Positions 43,397-52,485 of a DNA stretch of 64,000 nucleotides are shown here, one piece after another. This stretch comes from an uncultured Desulfurivibrio sp. (lineage in GTDB: Bacteria > Desulfobacterota > Desulfobulbia > Desulfobulbales > Desulfurivibrionaceae). The notes beneath the pieces were generated by a model. That model was given only the letters and a program-made list of their open reading frames with translations, ran no database searches and was not told where the DNA came from. The first letter of the stretch is position 1, and the number at the start of each line of letters is the position of its first letter. The DNA lies in assembly GCA_964441875.1 (NCBI GenBank), contig CAYTVV010000004.1:394-64393 (forward strand), in the 5' to 3' direction. Position numbers and translations under genes: made by a program.

Positions 43397-43975
43397 TTAT
43401 TCCGCTTTGATTTTCTGGAGGAGCCAGGCCATGTTGCTTCCCAGGTCGCGCATGGTTTTCATGCCTTCCTCGTCGTTGGCCACCTCGCCTGGTTCCCTGC
43501 CGATGCCGATGTTCCAGTAGGATGAGCCCACCACGATCATCTGGCCGATGAGGAAAAAGGCGTTGAGGGAGTTGAAGACCTGAATGGCTCCGGCCCTGCG
43601 GACCGCGACCACCCCGGCCCCGGCCTTGCGTTTGAACAAATCGCCGTTGGCCCGGGAAACCATGCCGCACCGCTCGATCAGGGCCTTCATCCCTGCGGAG
43701 ACATCGGCGAAGTAGGTGGGGGAGCCCAGGAGGATGCCGTCCGCAGCGATCATTTTGGCAAGGCAGTCGTTGATGATATCTTTTTCCACGGCGCAACGAC
43801 TGTCTTTGTTCTTGAAACACTGGTAGCAGGCGATGCAGCCGGAGACCGACTGGCCTGACAACTCGACCAGCTCTGTGTCGATCCCTTGGCGAGACAGCTC
43901 TTCCAAAGCGGTATTCAGCAATTTCGCGGTGTTTCCTCCCTTGCGGGCGCTTCCGTTAAACGCGACGACTTTCAT
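43397..43975 (-). CDS. Iron-sulfur flavoprotein (Isf) / NADPH-dependent FMN reductase family
   Basis: MKVVAFNGSARKGGNT flavodoxin-like start. Compact CIACYQCFKNKDSRC cysteine cluster, as in Isf proteins. Confidence 0.7.
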   Translation of the reverse strand: MKVVAFNGSARKGGNTAKLLNTALEELSRQGIDTELVELSGQSVSGCIACYQCFKNKDSRCAVEKDIINDCLAKMIAADGILLGSPTYFADVSAGMKALIERCGMVSRANGDLFKRKAGAGVVAVRRAGAIQVFNSLNAFFLIGQMIVVGSSYWNIGIGREPGEVANDEEGMKTMRDLGSNMAWLLQKIKAE

Positions 43976-44096
43976 GGCATTCTCTCCTCATGTTTTTCCA
44001 GCTTACGGTGTCGGGGTGTTATGCGGCGTTTGGGAGTGCATCTGGCATGATATTGTAATCGAGATTGGCAAGGACAGGAAGAATTTCGAGAAAAAA

Positions 44097-44126
44097 CCAG
44101 CCGGGGAAGAGCCCCGGCTGGTTTTT
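44097..44126 (-). terminator. Bidirectional-type intrinsic terminator after the radical SAM gene
   Basis: CCAGCCGGGG-aagag-CCCCGGCTGG flanked by A6 and T5. On the minus strand a U-run follows the stem 11 nt after the stop. Confidence 0.75.
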
Positions 44127-44137
44127 GTGGGAAAAAG

Positions 44138-45529
44138 TTACTTCCAGCAGTAGGACATTTCTGTTTCGGTCCGCCAGCTGTTCCAGAGATAGGCATCCTC
44201 CCGTTGTTGGGCGATGATCCGGAAGGCATGGCGCACCTGTTCCTCAAAAAAGCTACAGTAAGGGCTCGGTGCATTGATGTCGCCGGAGACCTTGTAGATC
44301 TCGGCAGGGCAGGGCGCCCCGCAGAAATGCCTGATGGCGCAGCCTGCACAGGGGATAATTTTTTCCACCTTTCTGTTTGTTACTTCCTGGAAAGGCTTGC
44401 TGGCAAGAATATCTGCGGGATCATCACGGAAGATGTTTCCGCCGGAAAACTCGTTCATGCCGATGAATTCGCTGCACGGAACGACCTCGCCGTCCGCGGC
44501 AACGGCAAAGAAACAACGACCGCCTCCGCAGGGAGAGATGTCGCACATCAGTCTGCGGCCGGTCGGGCCGATAACCCCGGCCAGAACATTGGCGAAGTTG
44601 GCGATGACCAGCTTTCTGCCGGTTTGCTCAAAAAGCTCAAAAGAGCGGTCCAGAGCCTTGAAAAAAGCCTCGGCCAGGACATGGTTGTCTGGTTTTAGAT
44701 CCATTCCACCTTGACGTGTGCAGCGCACCGGATTGAGCATGACCACCCGCACCCCCAGCCCGTGATAAAAATCCACCATTTCAGTCAGGGTGTGCACGTT
44801 GGCTTGGGTTACGGTGGTTATGACATTGAGAGCCGGGTAATCAACGAGTTTTTTGATCACCGAGACCACGGTGTCGTAATAGCCGTTGCCCTGCCAGTTC
44901 TTTCTGGTGCGGTTGGCGACCTCTGCGGTGGGGGCGTCCAGGGATAGGCCGATGCCGACCTTGTGCTCCCGTAAAAAGCTGATTGCCGTGTCGTCGAGCA
45001 GAGTGGCATTGGTCTGGATGCCGAAATGGAAGTCGTCTTTAAAACGTGCAATCGCGGCAAACACAGCATCCCTGGCCACCATGGGTTCGCTGCCGTGGAA
45101 GATAAGCTGCGGTTTTACCCCTTCCGGCAAAATCTTCCGGAAATGTTGCAGCAGCCGTTCAAGGGCGAGCATCAGCTTTTCCTCCCCCATGTCGATGCCG
45201 TTTTTGCGCATCTCTTCGGGAAGGTAGCAGTAGCTGCAATTCAGGTTGCAGCGTTCGGTTGGGTTCACATATGCGGCGGAGAGCTTCAGGCCCGAGCGCA
45301 GGTGGTCCATTTCCGTGTGAAATTCCGCCTCGCGGGCCATGAAGTCTTGGGCCATGGAGCCAGCCAGGGCCTGGGGCAGGTCATCTCTGTCAACCAAGGC
45401 CCAGTAGGCCGTGTCCGCCTCGACAACCGCAACCCGATCAGGATCGCCGATCTCCAGCACGGAGAAATTCGGGCCATGGCCGGTATTGGCGAAAACGGTC
45501 GTTGCTGTCTGTTTGTCTGTTTGTGCCAT
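44138..45529 (-). CDS. Radical SAM enzyme with C-terminal SPASM domain (peptide-maturase type)
   Basis: ERCNLNCSYCY (CxxxCxxC). SPASM cysteines CGGGRC..VPC and CAGCAIRHFCGAPC (Cx2Cx5Cx3C). About 95-aa N-terminal extension. Confidence 0.85.
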   Translation of the reverse strand: MAQTDKQTATTVFANTGHGPNFSVLEIGDPDRVAVVEADTAYWALVDRDDLPQALAGSMAQDFMAREAEFHTEMDHLRSGLKLSAAYVNPTERCNLNCSYCYLPEEMRKNGIDMGEEKLMLALERLLQHFRKILPEGVKPQLIFHGSEPMVARDAVFAAIARFKDDFHFGIQTNATLLDDTAISFLREHKVGIGLSLDAPTAEVANRTRKNWQGNGYYDTVVSVIKKLVDYPALNVITTVTQANVHTLTEMVDFYHGLGVRVVMLNPVRCTRQGGMDLKPDNHVLAEAFFKALDRSFELFEQTGRKLVIANFANVLAGVIGPTGRRLMCDISPCGGGRCFFAVAADGEVVPCSEFIGMNEFSGGNIFRDDPADILASKPFQEVTNRKVEKIIPCAGCAIRHFCGAPCPAEIYKVSGDINAPSPYCSFFEEQVRHAFRIIAQQREDAYLWNSWRTETEMSYCWK

Positions 45530-45657
45530 TACTTGCTGCCGTCCTCTGGTGTTGTGTCCGCGCTGGGGGCGAGCAGGATATAATGGGAAAGTCCGGTTCC
45601 CTGGCCGATCAGGTTGCAGCGCCGACGGTATGAAATGATCTGTTTCTGTGCCTTCAT
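45529..45657 (-). CDS. 42-aa candidate precursor peptide (not in the supplied ORF track)
   Basis: Hand translation gives MKAQKQIISYRRRCNLIGQGTGLSHYILLAPSADTTPEDGSK. AGGAGA SD 5 nt upstream of the ATG. Stop TAA overlaps the rSAM ATG (TAATG). Confidence 0.6.
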   Translation of the reverse strand: MKAQKQIISYRRRCNLIGQGTGLSHYILLAPSADTTPEDGSK

Positions 45658-45690
45658 GGTTTTCTCCTGTTATTGTTGGTCAGTGTGCAT

Positions 45691-45728
45691 AAAAAAACCC
45701 GGAGCAACCCCATAGGAGTCACTCCGGG
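45691..45728 (-). terminator. Intrinsic terminator forming the riboswitch expression platform
   Basis: Minus strand reads CCCGGAG-(17 nt)-CTCCGGG followed by U7. It lies between the aptamer and the SD of the small ORF. Confidence 0.7.
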
Positions 45729-45784
45729 TTCTGTTTCCATTAGAATACCCAGACGAACAGCAATACAAACGTGCGAAACATTAT

Positions 45785-45942
45785 CACCAGGTCTTCTGAC
45801 TTTCGGATCGTCTGCTGGTCGGCGGTCTTCCCCCCACAGTGATACGCTCTGGGAGTGACCGGGAAATTCCCTGTGCTGACCAGCATCCCCGATTACAGCG
45901 GCGGGACCGCCACGGATTTACACCGTGTTCCGGGATGATGAA
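45785..45942 (-). promoter_or_regulatory. Cobalamin (B12) riboswitch aptamer
   Basis: Minus strand reads GGUGUAAAUCCGUGGCGGUCCCGCCGCUGUAA ... AUCACUGUGGGGGGAAGACC ... B12 box AAGUCAGAAGACCUGG. Order and spacing are as in Rfam RF00174 members. Confidence 0.8.
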
Positions 45943-45961: not shown

Positions 45962-45990
45962 TTTAAACCCTTTTTCCCCTGGCTTGTCAA
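45962..45990 (-). promoter_or_regulatory. Sigma-70-like promoter for the riboswitch transcript
   Basis: Minus strand reads TTGACA-N17-TTTAAA, ending about 20 nt upstream of the aptamer. Confidence 0.45.
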
Positions 45991-46187: not shown

Positions 46188-46271
46188 GCGAGAGTGGCGG
46201 AATTGGTAGACGCACTGGTCTTAGGAACCAGCGCCTTTGGTATGGGGGTTCGACTCCCCCCTCTCGCACCA
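46188..46271 (+). tRNA. tRNA-Leu (anticodon TAG)
   Basis: Acceptor GCGAGAG/CTCTCGC, anticodon loop CTTAGGA, long variable arm, T-loop GTTCGACTC, encoded CCA. Confidence 0.9.
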
Positions 46272-52326: not shown

Positions 52327-52402
52327 GGGCGAATAGCTCAGCTGGGAGAGCATCGGCCTTACAAGCCGAGGGTCACAGGTTCGATCCCTGTTTCGCCCAC
52401 CA
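52327..52402 (+). tRNA. tRNA-Val (anticodon TAC)
   Basis: Acceptor GGGCGAA/TTCGCCC, anticodon loop CTTACAA, T-loop TTCGATC, encoded CCA. Confidence 0.9.
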
Positions 52403-52408
52403 CAAAGA

Positions 52409-52485
52409 GGAGTGGTAGTTCAGTTGGTTAGAATACCGGCCTGTCACGCCGGGGGTCGCGGGTTCGAGCCCCGTCCACTCCGCCA
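52409..52485 (+). tRNA. tRNA-Asp (anticodon GTC)
   Basis: Acceptor GGAGTGG/CCACTCC, anticodon loop CTGTCAC, T-loop TTCGAGC, encoded CCA. Confidence 0.9.

What the first reader, a model, noticed from the sequence alone, without database searches (positions are those of the whole stretch)
45529..45657. Unannotated 42-aa ORF with unusual composition for a RiPP precursor
The hand translation is MKAQKQIISYRRRCNLIGQGTGLSHYILLAPSADTTPEDGSK. It falls below the 60-aa cutoff of the supplied track, so automated calling would miss it.

Evidence that it is translated is the AGGAGA SD with 5-nt spacing and the 1-nt TAATG coupling to the maturase.

The composition is polarised:
- a strongly basic N-terminal third (K2, K5, RRR) with the single Cys
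- a Gly-rich GQGTG hinge
- a hydrophobic HYILLAP stretch
- an acidic C-terminal tail

One Cys plus Tyr, His and Thr gives several possible rSAM crosslink chemistries (thioether, C-C or C-O). None can be assigned from sequence.
Basis: seen in the sequence. Interest (0 to 1): 0.7.

Follow-up and report, generated by a model that had tools for sequence, protein, structure and literature searches.

The report
B12-riboswitch-controlled CbpA precursor peptide gene
The 42-codon ORF is a real, strongly conserved gene for a small peptide of the database-curated but biochemically uncharacterised CbpA family, which sits with its radical-SAM partner CbpB behind a vitamin-B12 riboswitch, so it is a known kind of gene whose function is still open.

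Summary
The ORF (45657..45529, minus strand), the AGGAGA Shine-Dalgarno with 5-nt spacing and the TAATG overlap are all present.

It is a coding gene. In 16 close orthologues, codons 8-29 show 0 of 44 variable first and second positions against 18 of 22 variable third positions (p=1e-12).

A homologous peptide precedes the orthologous radical-SAM gene in about 100 loci, down to 52% enzyme identity.

It is not a new kind of gene:
- The enzyme is NCBIfam TIGR04163 CbpB (676 bits).
- The peptide hits TIGR04164 "modified peptide precursor CbpA" at E=5e-6, but at 25.9 bits it falls below the 35-bit cutoff.
- GenBank already holds the identical peptide as "hypothetical protein".

A cobalamin riboswitch (45931..45791) with an intrinsic terminator sits directly upstream. 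It is conserved in 43 of 48 loci examined. The other five lie inside cobalamin-biosynthesis gene clusters.

Only R11, C14 and G-L-(S/A)-H-(Y/F) are invariant across the family. The acidic tail is specific to this clade.

Best reading: a B12-repressed precursor peptide, cross-linked by CbpB, that acts in cobamide metabolism. The chemistry and the function are untested.

The parts
45962..45990 (-). Promoter-like element: TTGACA (45990..45985), a 17-nt spacer, then TTTAAA (45967..45962). Function is inferred.
   Evidence: Read from the sequence. The -35 TTGACA and the T/A-rich -10 are conserved in relatives (alignment A2). The simple promoter scan did not call it because its -10 rule was not met.
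45791..45931 (-). Cobalamin riboswitch aptamer (Rfam RF00174)
   Evidence: 69.6 bits against a gathering score of 31.5, E=4e-15. The same element lies upstream of cbpA in 43 of 48 loci examined.
45691..45732 (-). Intrinsic terminator of the riboswitch expression platform: an 18-bp stem, a 3-nt loop and a U7 run. It ends 34 nt before the cbpA start codon.
   Evidence: RNA fold. The terminator scan found part of it. The stem and T-run are conserved in relatives.
45663..45668 (-). Shine-Dalgarno AGGAGA, 5 nt upstream of the cbpA ATG
   Evidence: Sequence. A (G/A)GGAG(A/C) core (AGGAGA or GGAGGA; AGGAGC in L008) sits at the same distance in the orthologues whose 20-nt upstream sequence was examined.
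45529..45657 (-). cbpA: 42-aa peptide gene of the CbpA family, long-spacer subtype. The stop codon is included.
   Evidence: Translation. TIGR04164 E=5e-6, 25.9 bits, below the cutoff of 35. Purifying selection. Family-wide conservation.
45571..45636 (-). Conserved core module, codons 8-29 (ISYRRRCNLIGQGTGLSHYILL). It contains the family invariants R11, C14, G22, L23, H25 and Y26.
   Evidence: 0/44 first and second positions vary against 18/22 third positions. Invariant columns are listed. The whole module is duplicated in tandem in Sedimenticola peptides.
44138..45529 (-). cbpB: 463-aa radical SAM/SPASM enzyme. It has the CxxxCxxC motif at C94/C98/C101 and invariant SPASM cysteines at C329, C334, C339, C352, C394, C397, C403, C407 and C425. 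Its N-terminal 85-aa domain has three strands followed by helices.
   Evidence: TIGR04163 676 bits against a cutoff of 375. Pfam Radical_SAM plus SPASM. Invariant cysteines. AF2 model with pLDDT 86.9. Foldseek top hit CteB over 450-470 columns.
44087..44126 (-). Intrinsic terminator directly after the cbpB stop codon (15-bp stem plus U6). It closes the two-gene operon.
   Evidence: RNA fold, z=-2.8.

Best explanation
The ORF is cbpA. It encodes a ribosomally made 42-aa peptide that is the dedicated partner, and most likely the substrate, of the radical SAM/SPASM enzyme CbpB encoded immediately downstream. The two genes form a discrete bicistronic operon.

Transcription starts at a promoter near 45990 and passes through a cobalamin riboswitch. 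When (adenosyl)cobalamin is plentiful, the aptamer favours the 18-bp terminator at 45732..45691 and the operon is switched off. When corrinoid is scarce, transcription reads through. cbpA is then translated from its own AGGAGA, and cbpB is translated by coupling at the TAATG overlap.

CbpB has an N-terminal three-strand-plus-helices domain that probably docks the peptide. It cleaves SAM at its CxxxCxxC cluster, and the resulting 5'-deoxyadenosyl radical abstracts a hydrogen atom from the 25-residue core module. The likeliest outcome is one intramolecular cross-link that joins the invariant Cys14 to the invariant G-L-S-H-Y segment. A thioether is the favoured chemistry, at roughly 0.4 conditional probability. 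A C-C or N-C link through His25 or Tyr26 is the alternative. The two SPASM clusters handle the electrons.

The mature peptide most likely stays in the cell and serves cobamide (B12) biosynthesis or cobalt/corrinoid handling. It is unlikely to be an antibiotic.

Shown here: the ORF, SD, overlap, riboswitch and terminators; purifying selection; family membership of the enzyme; co-occurrence of peptide, enzyme and riboswitch; linkage to cob genes.

Inferred: the off-switch logic; peptide binding by the N-terminal domain; that the peptide is modified at all; the cross-link chemistry; the cellular role.
For: **Coding.**
- In codons 8-29, 0/44 first and second positions vary against 18/22 third positions. 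Core pN/pS is 0; p=1e-12.
- The ORF has its own SD.

**Pairing with the enzyme.**
- A homologous peptide lies upstream of the orthologous enzyme in every locus with at least about 150 nt of upstream sequence. That is about 100 loci, with CbpB identity from 98% down to 52%.
- A profile search finds 2107 clusters, many of them named 'modified peptide precursor CbpA'.

**Enzyme type.**
- TIGR04163 at 676 bits. The next-best families are all peptide maturases (DynA, PapB, QhpD, HxsB, SCIFF maturase) plus anSME.
- The closest solved structure is the thioether-forming CteB, both by sequence and by fold over the full length.
- The radical SAM and SPASM cysteines are invariant.

**The module as a unit.**
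- Sedimenticola peptides carry two tandem copies of the whole R-x-x-C...GLSHYILM module, each matched by TIGR04164.

**B12 control.**
- RF00174 at 69.6 bits followed by a terminator.
- The riboswitch lies upstream in 43 of 48 loci.

**Cobamide link.**
- The 5 loci without a riboswitch sit between cobB/cbiA-cbiC and cbiK/cbiX, or next to cobT.
- CobT (DBI_PRT) is the most frequent family among 142 neighbouring ORFs (7 members). CbiC, CobU and CbiX are among the many families seen in two ORFs each.
- In L112 the pair is immediately followed by a second riboswitch that heads a cbiA-cobA-cbiM-...-cbiD operon.

**No antibiotic-type partners.**
- No protease, exporter or immunity gene recurs near the pair.
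Against: - No experiment on CbpA or CbpB was found in the held literature. Modification, chemistry and function are therefore all untested.
- The peptide scores below the curated TIGR04164 cutoff (25.9 against 35 bits).
- The N-terminal domain of CbpB has no detectable sequence similarity to PqqD/RRE domains. Modelled alone, it has no significant structural match. The best hit is the RRE protein TbiB1, but at E=0.6.
- In this window no cob gene is nearby, so the cobamide link rests on the riboswitch here and on gene linkage in other lineages.
- B12 repression would also fit a B12-sparing function rather than a biosynthetic one.
- SPASM enzymes that act on tetrapyrroles exist: AhbD gives a 68-bit hit. 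The peptide might therefore not be the substrate.
Confidence: 0.72

Rival explanations
1. CbpB acts on a corrinoid or tetrapyrrole intermediate of the anaerobic B12 pathway, as the SPASM enzymes AhbD and NirJ act on haem precursors. CbpA is then an unmodified helper, for example a Cys/His peptide that carries cobalt or a corrinoid, or a small subunit of the enzyme.
For: - The pair is embedded in cob operons and sits behind B12 riboswitches.
- CbpB gives a weak AhbD hit (68 bits).
- The invariant residues include one Cys and one His, both typical metal or corrin ligands. The two-module Sedimenticola peptides would offer two Cys and two His.
- No sequence-level RRE was found.
Against: - Every better-scoring relative of CbpB is a peptide- or protein-modifying enzyme.
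- The best structural match over the full length is CteB, which includes an N-terminal peptide-binding domain.
- A small peptide gene strictly coupled 1:1 to a SPASM enzyme is the signature of precursor/maturase pairs.
- Invariant G-L-x-H-Y-I adjacent residues are more than a two-ligand metal site would need.
Confidence: 0.12
2. The ORF is a regulatory leader ORF. Its translation only serves to load ribosomes onto cbpB, or to tune the riboswitch read-out. The peptide itself has no function.
For: It lies between the riboswitch terminator and the enzyme gene and overlaps the cbpB start by 1 nt (TAATG). cbpB has only a distant SD-like GAGGA upstream.
Against: - Amino-acid identity is maintained while third codon positions are saturated.
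- The same residues are invariant across Thermodesulfobacteriota and Gammaproteobacteria.
- In many loci the ORF ends 40-140 nt (up to about 300 nt in L068/L070) before cbpB, so coupling is not conserved.
- The module is duplicated in tandem in some species.
Confidence: 0.04
3. It is the precursor of a secreted antimicrobial or signalling RiPP, a sactipeptide- or ranthipeptide-like bacteriocin. The B12 control is incidental.
For: The enzyme resembles CteB, PapB and DynA. The peptide is short, cationic in most lineages and contains Cys.
Against: - No leader peptidase, ABC exporter or immunity gene recurs beside the pair in about 60 divergent loci.
- Sequence conservation across phyla is far tighter than is usual for bacteriocin cores.
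- The B12 riboswitch or cob-gene context is essentially universal.
Confidence: 0.06
4. It is a chance open frame in the leader of the radical SAM gene.
For: Short ORFs are abundant here: 127 of at least 30 aa in 12 kb.
Against: The codon-position test gives p=1e-12. The SD is conserved. The frame is preserved in about 100 loci. The overlapping plus-strand ORFs would take the observed substitutions at their first or second codon positions (coordinates).
Confidence: 0.01

Closest known systems
CbpA/CbpB pair of NCBIfam/TIGRFAMs (TIGR04164 'cobo_pep, modified peptide precursor CbpA' and TIGR04163 'rSAM_cobopep, peptide-modifying radical SAM enzyme CbpB')
   Same: The enzyme matches at 676 bits. 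The peptide carries every family-wide invariant (R-x-x-C ... G-L-S-H-Y-I), lies directly upstream of the enzyme and sits behind a cobalamin riboswitch.
   Different: The peptide is of a long-spacer subtype, with 7 residues between Cys and GLSHY, an ILLAP motif instead of ILMDKK, and a 13-residue acidic tail. It scores 25.9 bits against a cutoff of 35. Fourteen peptides of the long- and intermediate-spacer (non-ILMDKK) types were tested and all scored 20-32 bits, whereas the short-spacer type scores 54-65 bits. The family is defined only bioinformatically. No product or function is known from the held literature.
SCIFF peptide and its thioether-forming maturase CteB (PDB 5WGG/5WHY)
   Same: A peptide gene of about 45 aa directly precedes an enzyme with an N-terminal domain, a radical SAM domain and a SPASM domain. 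CteB is the closest solved structure by sequence (E=7e-24) and by fold (E=1e-19, full length). There is no dedicated exporter or protease, and an intracellular role is suspected.
   Different: SCIFF has six Cys; CbpA has one. Identity to CteB is only 22%. CbpB scores far below the SCIFF-maturase cutoff (108 against 425 bits). SCIFF is not known to me to be under B12 control (own knowledge).
Peptide-derived cofactor systems PqqA/PqqE and MftA/MftC
   Same: A small conserved peptide with an essential Tyr is processed by a radical SAM/SPASM enzyme for an intracellular metabolic role, and is tightly conserved across taxa (own knowledge of these systems; general background in PMC5682303).
   Different: Those systems need a separate PqqD/MftB chaperone, peptidases and further tailoring enzymes encoded in the same cluster. 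CbpAB is a bare two-gene cassette. PqqE is only a distant structural hit.
B12-riboswitch regulons (cob/cbi, btu and cobalt transport genes, and B12-independent isozymes such as NrdDG and MetE)
   Same: An RF00174 aptamer plus terminator lies upstream. The logic described for delta-proteobacteria is repression by Ado-cobalamin of B12 synthesis and transport genes and of B12-independent isozymes (PMC545781).
   Different: The regulated genes here are a peptide/maturase pair. That class is not listed in that regulon reconstruction.

Membership tests
CbpA (NCBIfam TIGR04164, cobo_pep) | HMM score at or above the curated cutoff of 35 bits | tested here: inconclusive
   25.9 bits, E=5e-6, covering residues 8-29 against profile positions 2-21 of 25. 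The hit is significant but below the cutoff. Fourteen peptides of the long- and intermediate-spacer (non-ILMDKK) types score 20-32 bits, although their partners were retrieved as CbpB homologues. The short-spacer subtype scores 54-65 bits and two-module peptides score 102-104 bits. The threshold reflects the model's seed subtype and not an absence of homology.
CbpA (NCBIfam TIGR04164, cobo_pep) | The conserved module R-x-x-C-x(4-8)-G-L-[SA]-H-[YF]-[ILV] within a peptide of about 30-50 aa | tested here: met
   R11, C14, G22, L23, S24, H25, Y26 and I27 are all present. These are the invariant or near-invariant columns of 45 diverse family members.
CbpA (NCBIfam TIGR04164, cobo_pep) | Encoded immediately upstream of a CbpB (TIGR04163) gene | tested here: met
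   There is a 1-nt overlap with a gene that scores 676 bits against a cutoff of 375.
CbpA (NCBIfam TIGR04164, cobo_pep) | Cobalamin context: a riboswitch or a cob operon | tested here: met
   RF00174 at 45931..45791, 69.6 bits. Across the family, 43 of 48 loci have the riboswitch and the other 5 lie among cob genes.
CbpA (NCBIfam TIGR04164, cobo_pep) | The peptide is post-translationally modified by CbpB | not testable with these tools
   This needs co-expression and mass spectrometry.
CbpB (NCBIfam TIGR04163, rSAM_cobopep) | HMM score above the cutoff, a CxxxCxxC radical SAM motif, and a full SPASM cysteine set | tested here: met
   676.2 bits against 375. Pfam Radical_SAM plus SPASM. C94/C98/C101 and nine SPASM-region cysteines are invariant in 42 homologues.
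RiPP precursor/maturase pair, radical SAM-SPASM class | A short ribosomally translated ORF under purifying selection | tested here: met
   Core pN/pS is 0.00, with 18 of 22 third positions variable. Translation itself was not measured.
RiPP precursor/maturase pair, radical SAM-SPASM class | A peptide-recognition (RRE/PqqD-like) domain in or beside the maturase | tested here: inconclusive
   The AF2 model has three strands followed by helices at residues 22-79, and the full-length model aligns end to end with CteB. There is no Pfam or PDB sequence hit for the domain. Modelled alone, the domain's best match is the RRE protein TbiB1, at a non-significant E=0.6.
RiPP precursor/maturase pair, radical SAM-SPASM class | A leader peptidase and/or exporter encoded in the cluster | tested here: not met
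   None recurs among 142 neighbouring ORFs from about 60 divergent loci, or in 7 annotated contexts. Here, terminators bound the two-gene unit on both sides. This argues against a secreted product. It does not argue against modification.
SCIFF (six-Cys-in-45 peptide) | Six conserved Cys and a cognate SCIFF maturase | tested here: not met
   The peptide has one Cys. The enzyme scores 107.8 bits against a cutoff of 425 for TIGR03974.
Cobalamin riboswitch (Rfam RF00174) | Covariance-model score above the gathering threshold | tested here: met
   69.6 bits against 31.5, E=4e-15. Ligand response was not tested.

The most novel reading that the evidence does not exclude
The CbpB-modified CbpA peptide is a so far unrecognised component of anaerobic cobamide biosynthesis. 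It could be a peptide-derived cofactor, or a Cys/His cobalt or corrinoid carrier. Its frequent placement next to cobT/cobU also allows a role in supplying or presenting the lower ligand, with the invariant His-Tyr pair as the reactive part. It would be the first ribosomal peptide with a role in making vitamin B12.
Probability: 0.15. Interest if true: 0.85.

Novelty: already known. Interest (0 to 1): 0.38.

Why it matters
The gene itself is ordinary in the sense that curated models (TIGR04163 and TIGR04164) already describe this pair. IMG already names close orthologues CbpA.

What remains open is what the pair does. It is a very tightly conserved peptide plus radical SAM enzyme. It is switched off by B12 and repeatedly placed inside cobalamin-biosynthesis operons of anaerobes. 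No published product or function was found in the held literature.

If the peptide takes part in cobamide synthesis or in cobalt or corrinoid handling, it would add a new type of player to a pathway regarded as essentially complete.

On the practical side, the analysis shows that the curated CbpA model misses the long-spacer subtype (20-32 bits against a cutoff of 35). PGAP therefore labels these peptides 'hypothetical', or they are not called at all.

Tried and rejected
- **Chance ORF.** Rejected by the codon-position test.
- **Overlapping plus-strand ORFs** (45411..45638 and 45502..45633). The variable sites fall on their first or second codon positions, so they are not the constrained frame (coordinates; variation).
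- **Downstream FMN-reductase / iron-sulfur-flavoprotein-like gene (43975..43397) as a third member of the system.** Rejected. It is syntenic only in the Desulfurivibrionaceae/Thiovibrio clade. A strong terminator follows cbpB. The gene has its own SD.
- **L021 (Geoglobus, 36% identity).** No peptide and no riboswitch. It is treated as a different SPASM family.
- **L019's 'missing' riboswitch.** This is an artefact of masked Ns in the stored sequence.
- **AF2 of a CbpA-linker-CbpB fusion with a paired alignment**, meant to locate the peptide in the active site.
- **Sequence-level RRE/PqqD detection in CbpB residues 13-85.** Nothing was found in Pfam or PDB. Foldseek on the isolated domain was not significant.
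- **Literature.** Seven full-text searches and look-ups of Haft & Basu 2011 and the CteB paper found no text on CbpA/CbpB.
- **Antiterminator.** The aptamer segment GGUCACUCC (within 45861..45832) is complementary to the 5' arm of the terminator (GGAGUGAC; duplex -17.6 kcal/mol). Thermodynamic folding always prefers the terminator, so the switch mechanism stays inferred.
Full report
**Observation**

AGGAGA lies at 45668..45663, 5 nt before the ATG. The TAA stop shares its last base with the ATG of a 463-aa radical SAM/SPASM gene at 45529..44138. A 42-codon open frame means little on its own, because 127 ORFs of at least 30 aa overlap the surrounding 12 kb. The test therefore has to be conservation.

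**Is it a gene?**

A scan of species-representative genomes with the enzyme returned 23 loci, mostly Desulfurivibrionaceae and other Thermodesulfobacteriota. In every bacterial locus with upstream sequence, the same frame is open and is preceded by a purine-rich SD (AGGAGA or GGAGGA).

Among 16 close orthologues, codons 8-29 show no change at 44 first and second positions but changes at 18 of 22 third positions. pN/pS is 0.00 for this core, 0.63 for codons 30-42 and 0.20 overall. Fisher p is 1e-12. The variable sites fall on the first or second codon positions of the overlapping plus-strand ORFs, so the minus frame is the constrained one.

A metagenome scan added 80 loci, with enzyme identity down to 52%. 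A homologous peptide was found in all of those with enough upstream sequence. The same holds for seven genomic contexts fetched by exact protein look-up. The ORF is therefore a protein-coding gene, although translation itself was not measured.

**What family?**

The enzyme is NCBIfam TIGR04163, 'peptide-modifying radical SAM enzyme CbpB' (676 bits, cutoff 375). The peptide hits TIGR04164, 'modified peptide precursor CbpA', at E=5e-6, but its 25.9 bits fall below the 35-bit cutoff.

This shortfall is a property of the model:
- Fourteen peptides of the long- and intermediate-spacer (non-ILMDKK) types score 20-32 bits.
- Short-spacer peptides (VIAYRKxCxxDGTGLSHYILMDKK) score 54-65 bits.
- Two-module peptides score 102-104 bits.

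A profile of 45 peptides finds 2107 clusters in the large protein collection, and NCBI or IMG name many of them CbpA. The identical 42-aa sequence is GenBank MCX5876006.1, 'hypothetical protein'. IMG names 81-83% identical orthologues CbpA.

So the gene is known as a kind. The claim that it is unannotated holds only in part. Gene callers did skip it in 4 of 7 contexts inspected.

**Anatomy of the peptide**

Across the family only R11, C14, G22, L23 and H25 are invariant. Y26 is nearly so (F once), S24 may be A, and I27 may be L or V. Tyr10 is replaced by F, I, L, C, S or T. The spacer between Cys and GLSHY varies from 4 to 8 residues. The tail is usually a short Lys-rich stretch. The 13-residue acidic tail is peculiar to the window's clade and evolves almost neutrally.

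In Sedimenticola (Gammaproteobacteria) the whole R-x-x-C...GLSHYILM module occurs twice in tandem in peptides of 67-80 aa. This shows that the two conserved blocks form one functional unit, not a leader plus a core. It also makes a link between Cys14 and the GLSHY segment the most economical guess for the modification.

**The enzyme**

CbpB has the CxxxCxxC motif (C94/C98/C101) and nine invariant cysteines in the SPASM region. It has no B12-binding domain.

Its best non-self HMM hits are the maturases DynA, PapB, QhpD, HxsB, anSME, the nif11-peptide maturase and the SCIFF maturase, all far below their cutoffs. The closest solved structure is the thioether-forming CteB, by sequence and by Foldseek on an AF2 model of pLDDT 86.9. 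That alignment covers about 460 columns and therefore includes the N-terminal domain.

The N-terminal domain (strands 22-25, 32-37 and 42-47, then helices 48-79) has the strand-strand-strand-helix order of peptide-recognition elements. No sequence similarity to them is detectable. Modelled alone, its best structural match is the RRE protein TbiB1, at a non-significant E=0.6. I treat peptide docking there as plausible and not shown.

**Regulation and operon limits**

Rfam finds a cobalamin riboswitch at 45931..45791 (69.6 bits). Fifty-nine nucleotides downstream is an 18-bp hairpin followed by U7 (45732..45691), ending 34 nt before the cbpA start codon. A TTGACA-17-TTTAAA promoter-like element at 45990..45962 is conserved in relatives. 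A second strong terminator (44126..44087) follows the cbpB stop. cbpA-cbpB is thus a self-contained bicistronic unit.

The FMN-reductase-like gene downstream has its own SD and is syntenic only within this clade. Repression by cobalamin is inferred from the standard behaviour of this riboswitch class (PMC545781).

**Link to cobalamin**

Including the window, 43 of 48 loci examined carry RF00174 directly upstream of cbpA. One apparent exception, L019, is masked sequence.

The five loci without a riboswitch, confirmed at E<0.1, lie inside cobalamin-biosynthesis clusters:
- cobB/cbiA-cbiC-[cbpA-cbpB]-cbiK or a cbiX-like gene in L092 and L106.
- [cbpA-cbpB]-cobT in L078, L079 and L094.

Among 142 neighbouring ORFs from about 60 divergent loci, the most frequent Pfam family is CobT/DBI_PRT (7 members). 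CbiC, CobU and CbiX each occur in two ORFs, as do many unrelated families. In a Sedimenticola contig the pair is immediately followed by a second riboswitch that heads a cbiA-cobA-cbiM-methylase-cbiX-cbiC-cbiD operon. No protease, exporter or immunity gene recurs.

Two independent lines, regulation and gene linkage, thus tie the pair to cobamide metabolism. They argue against an antibiotic role. Embedding within cob operons also favours a role in making or handling B12 over a B12-sparing isozyme, although the latter is not excluded.

**Mechanism proposed**

When B12 is low, transcription reads through the riboswitch. CbpA and CbpB are then made together. CbpB binds CbpA and, through SAM-derived radical chemistry, installs one intramolecular cross-link in the 25-residue module. 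A Cys14 thioether is favoured, given the single invariant Cys and the CteB/PapB/QhpD affinities of the enzyme. General thioether chemistry is reviewed in PMC5682303. The product then acts inside the cell in cobamide synthesis or in cobalt or corrinoid handling.

Everything after 'made together' is inference.

The main rival is that CbpB modifies a corrinoid, with CbpA as a helper. I give this about 0.12, because AhbD-type SPASM enzymes act on tetrapyrroles and because Cys and His are classical ligands.

**Novelty and score**

The finding is real and well supported, but it is an instance of a curated family. No paper on its chemistry or function was found in seven searches.

The value added here is:
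- proof of coding;
- the true set of invariant residues;
- the tandem-module variant;
- the operon boundaries;
- a quantified link to B12 riboswitches and cob genes;
- the observation that the curated CbpA model misses the long-spacer subtype.

Interest is moderate. The system is an attractive, directly testable open problem, but finding it in this window is not a surprise.

Noticed in passing
window 43397..43975 (-): A 192-aa FMN_red (PF03358) protein with a compact CxxCxxCx7C motif (CIACYQCFKNKDSRC), typical of iron-sulfur flavoproteins. It is 91-99% identical in the close (Desulfurivibrionaceae-type) relatives and 86% in Thiovibrio (L024); in many of the close loci it is more conserved than CbpB. 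It is syntenic only in the Desulfurivibrionaceae/Thiovibrio clade. A terminator separates it from cbpB.
   Followed up: partly
L111 8001-8243; L112 8001-8231 (Sedimenticola): These CbpA peptides of 76-80 aa carry two tandem copies of the whole conserved module. In L112 the pair is followed by a second cobalamin riboswitch and a full anaerobic cbi operon.
   Followed up: partly
NCBIfam TIGR04164 versus peptides from L015-L030, the window, and P0142/P0160/P0174: The curated 35-bit cutoff rejects every long- or intermediate-spacer (non-ILMDKK) CbpA tested (20-32 bits). NCBI therefore labels them 'hypothetical protein', or the ORF is not called. The model appears to be built on the short-spacer ILMDKK subtype.
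   Followed up: yes
L106 3581-3744 (+): A cobalamin riboswitch lies downstream of the cbiX-like gene that follows cbpB. This locus has no riboswitch in front of cbpA, so another B12-regulated unit is adjacent.
   Followed up: no
L078/L079/L094, ORF just upstream of cbpA (e.g. L079 1043-1306): A TIGR04076-family small protein of unknown function (37.7 bits, L079; the L078/L094 ORFs start with a similar sequence) and an Omp85-type gene precede the cbpA-cbpB-cobT arrangement in three related metagenome contigs.
   Followed up: no
window 46188..46271 (+): A tRNA-Leu(TAG) gene is transcribed divergently from the cbpAB promoter region. The arrangement is conserved in the 15 closest relatives (L001-L014 and L019). 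tRNA-Val and tRNA-Asp lie at 52327..52485.
   Followed up: no
protein cluster of the exact peptide: The 90% identity cluster holding the 42-aa peptide also lists a 481-aa 'Ni/Fe hydrogenase subunit alpha' (P0245). This is presumably a clustering artefact of the collection.
   Followed up: no
L105 2909-2954 (-) and 3064-3109 (+): Two Acido-Lenti-1 sRNA hits (48 and 41 bits) lie just downstream of cbpB in one metagenome contig.
   Followed up: no
window 44087..44126: The terminator after cbpB has an A-run on its 5' side and a U-run on its 3' side, so it could work in both directions.
   Followed up: no
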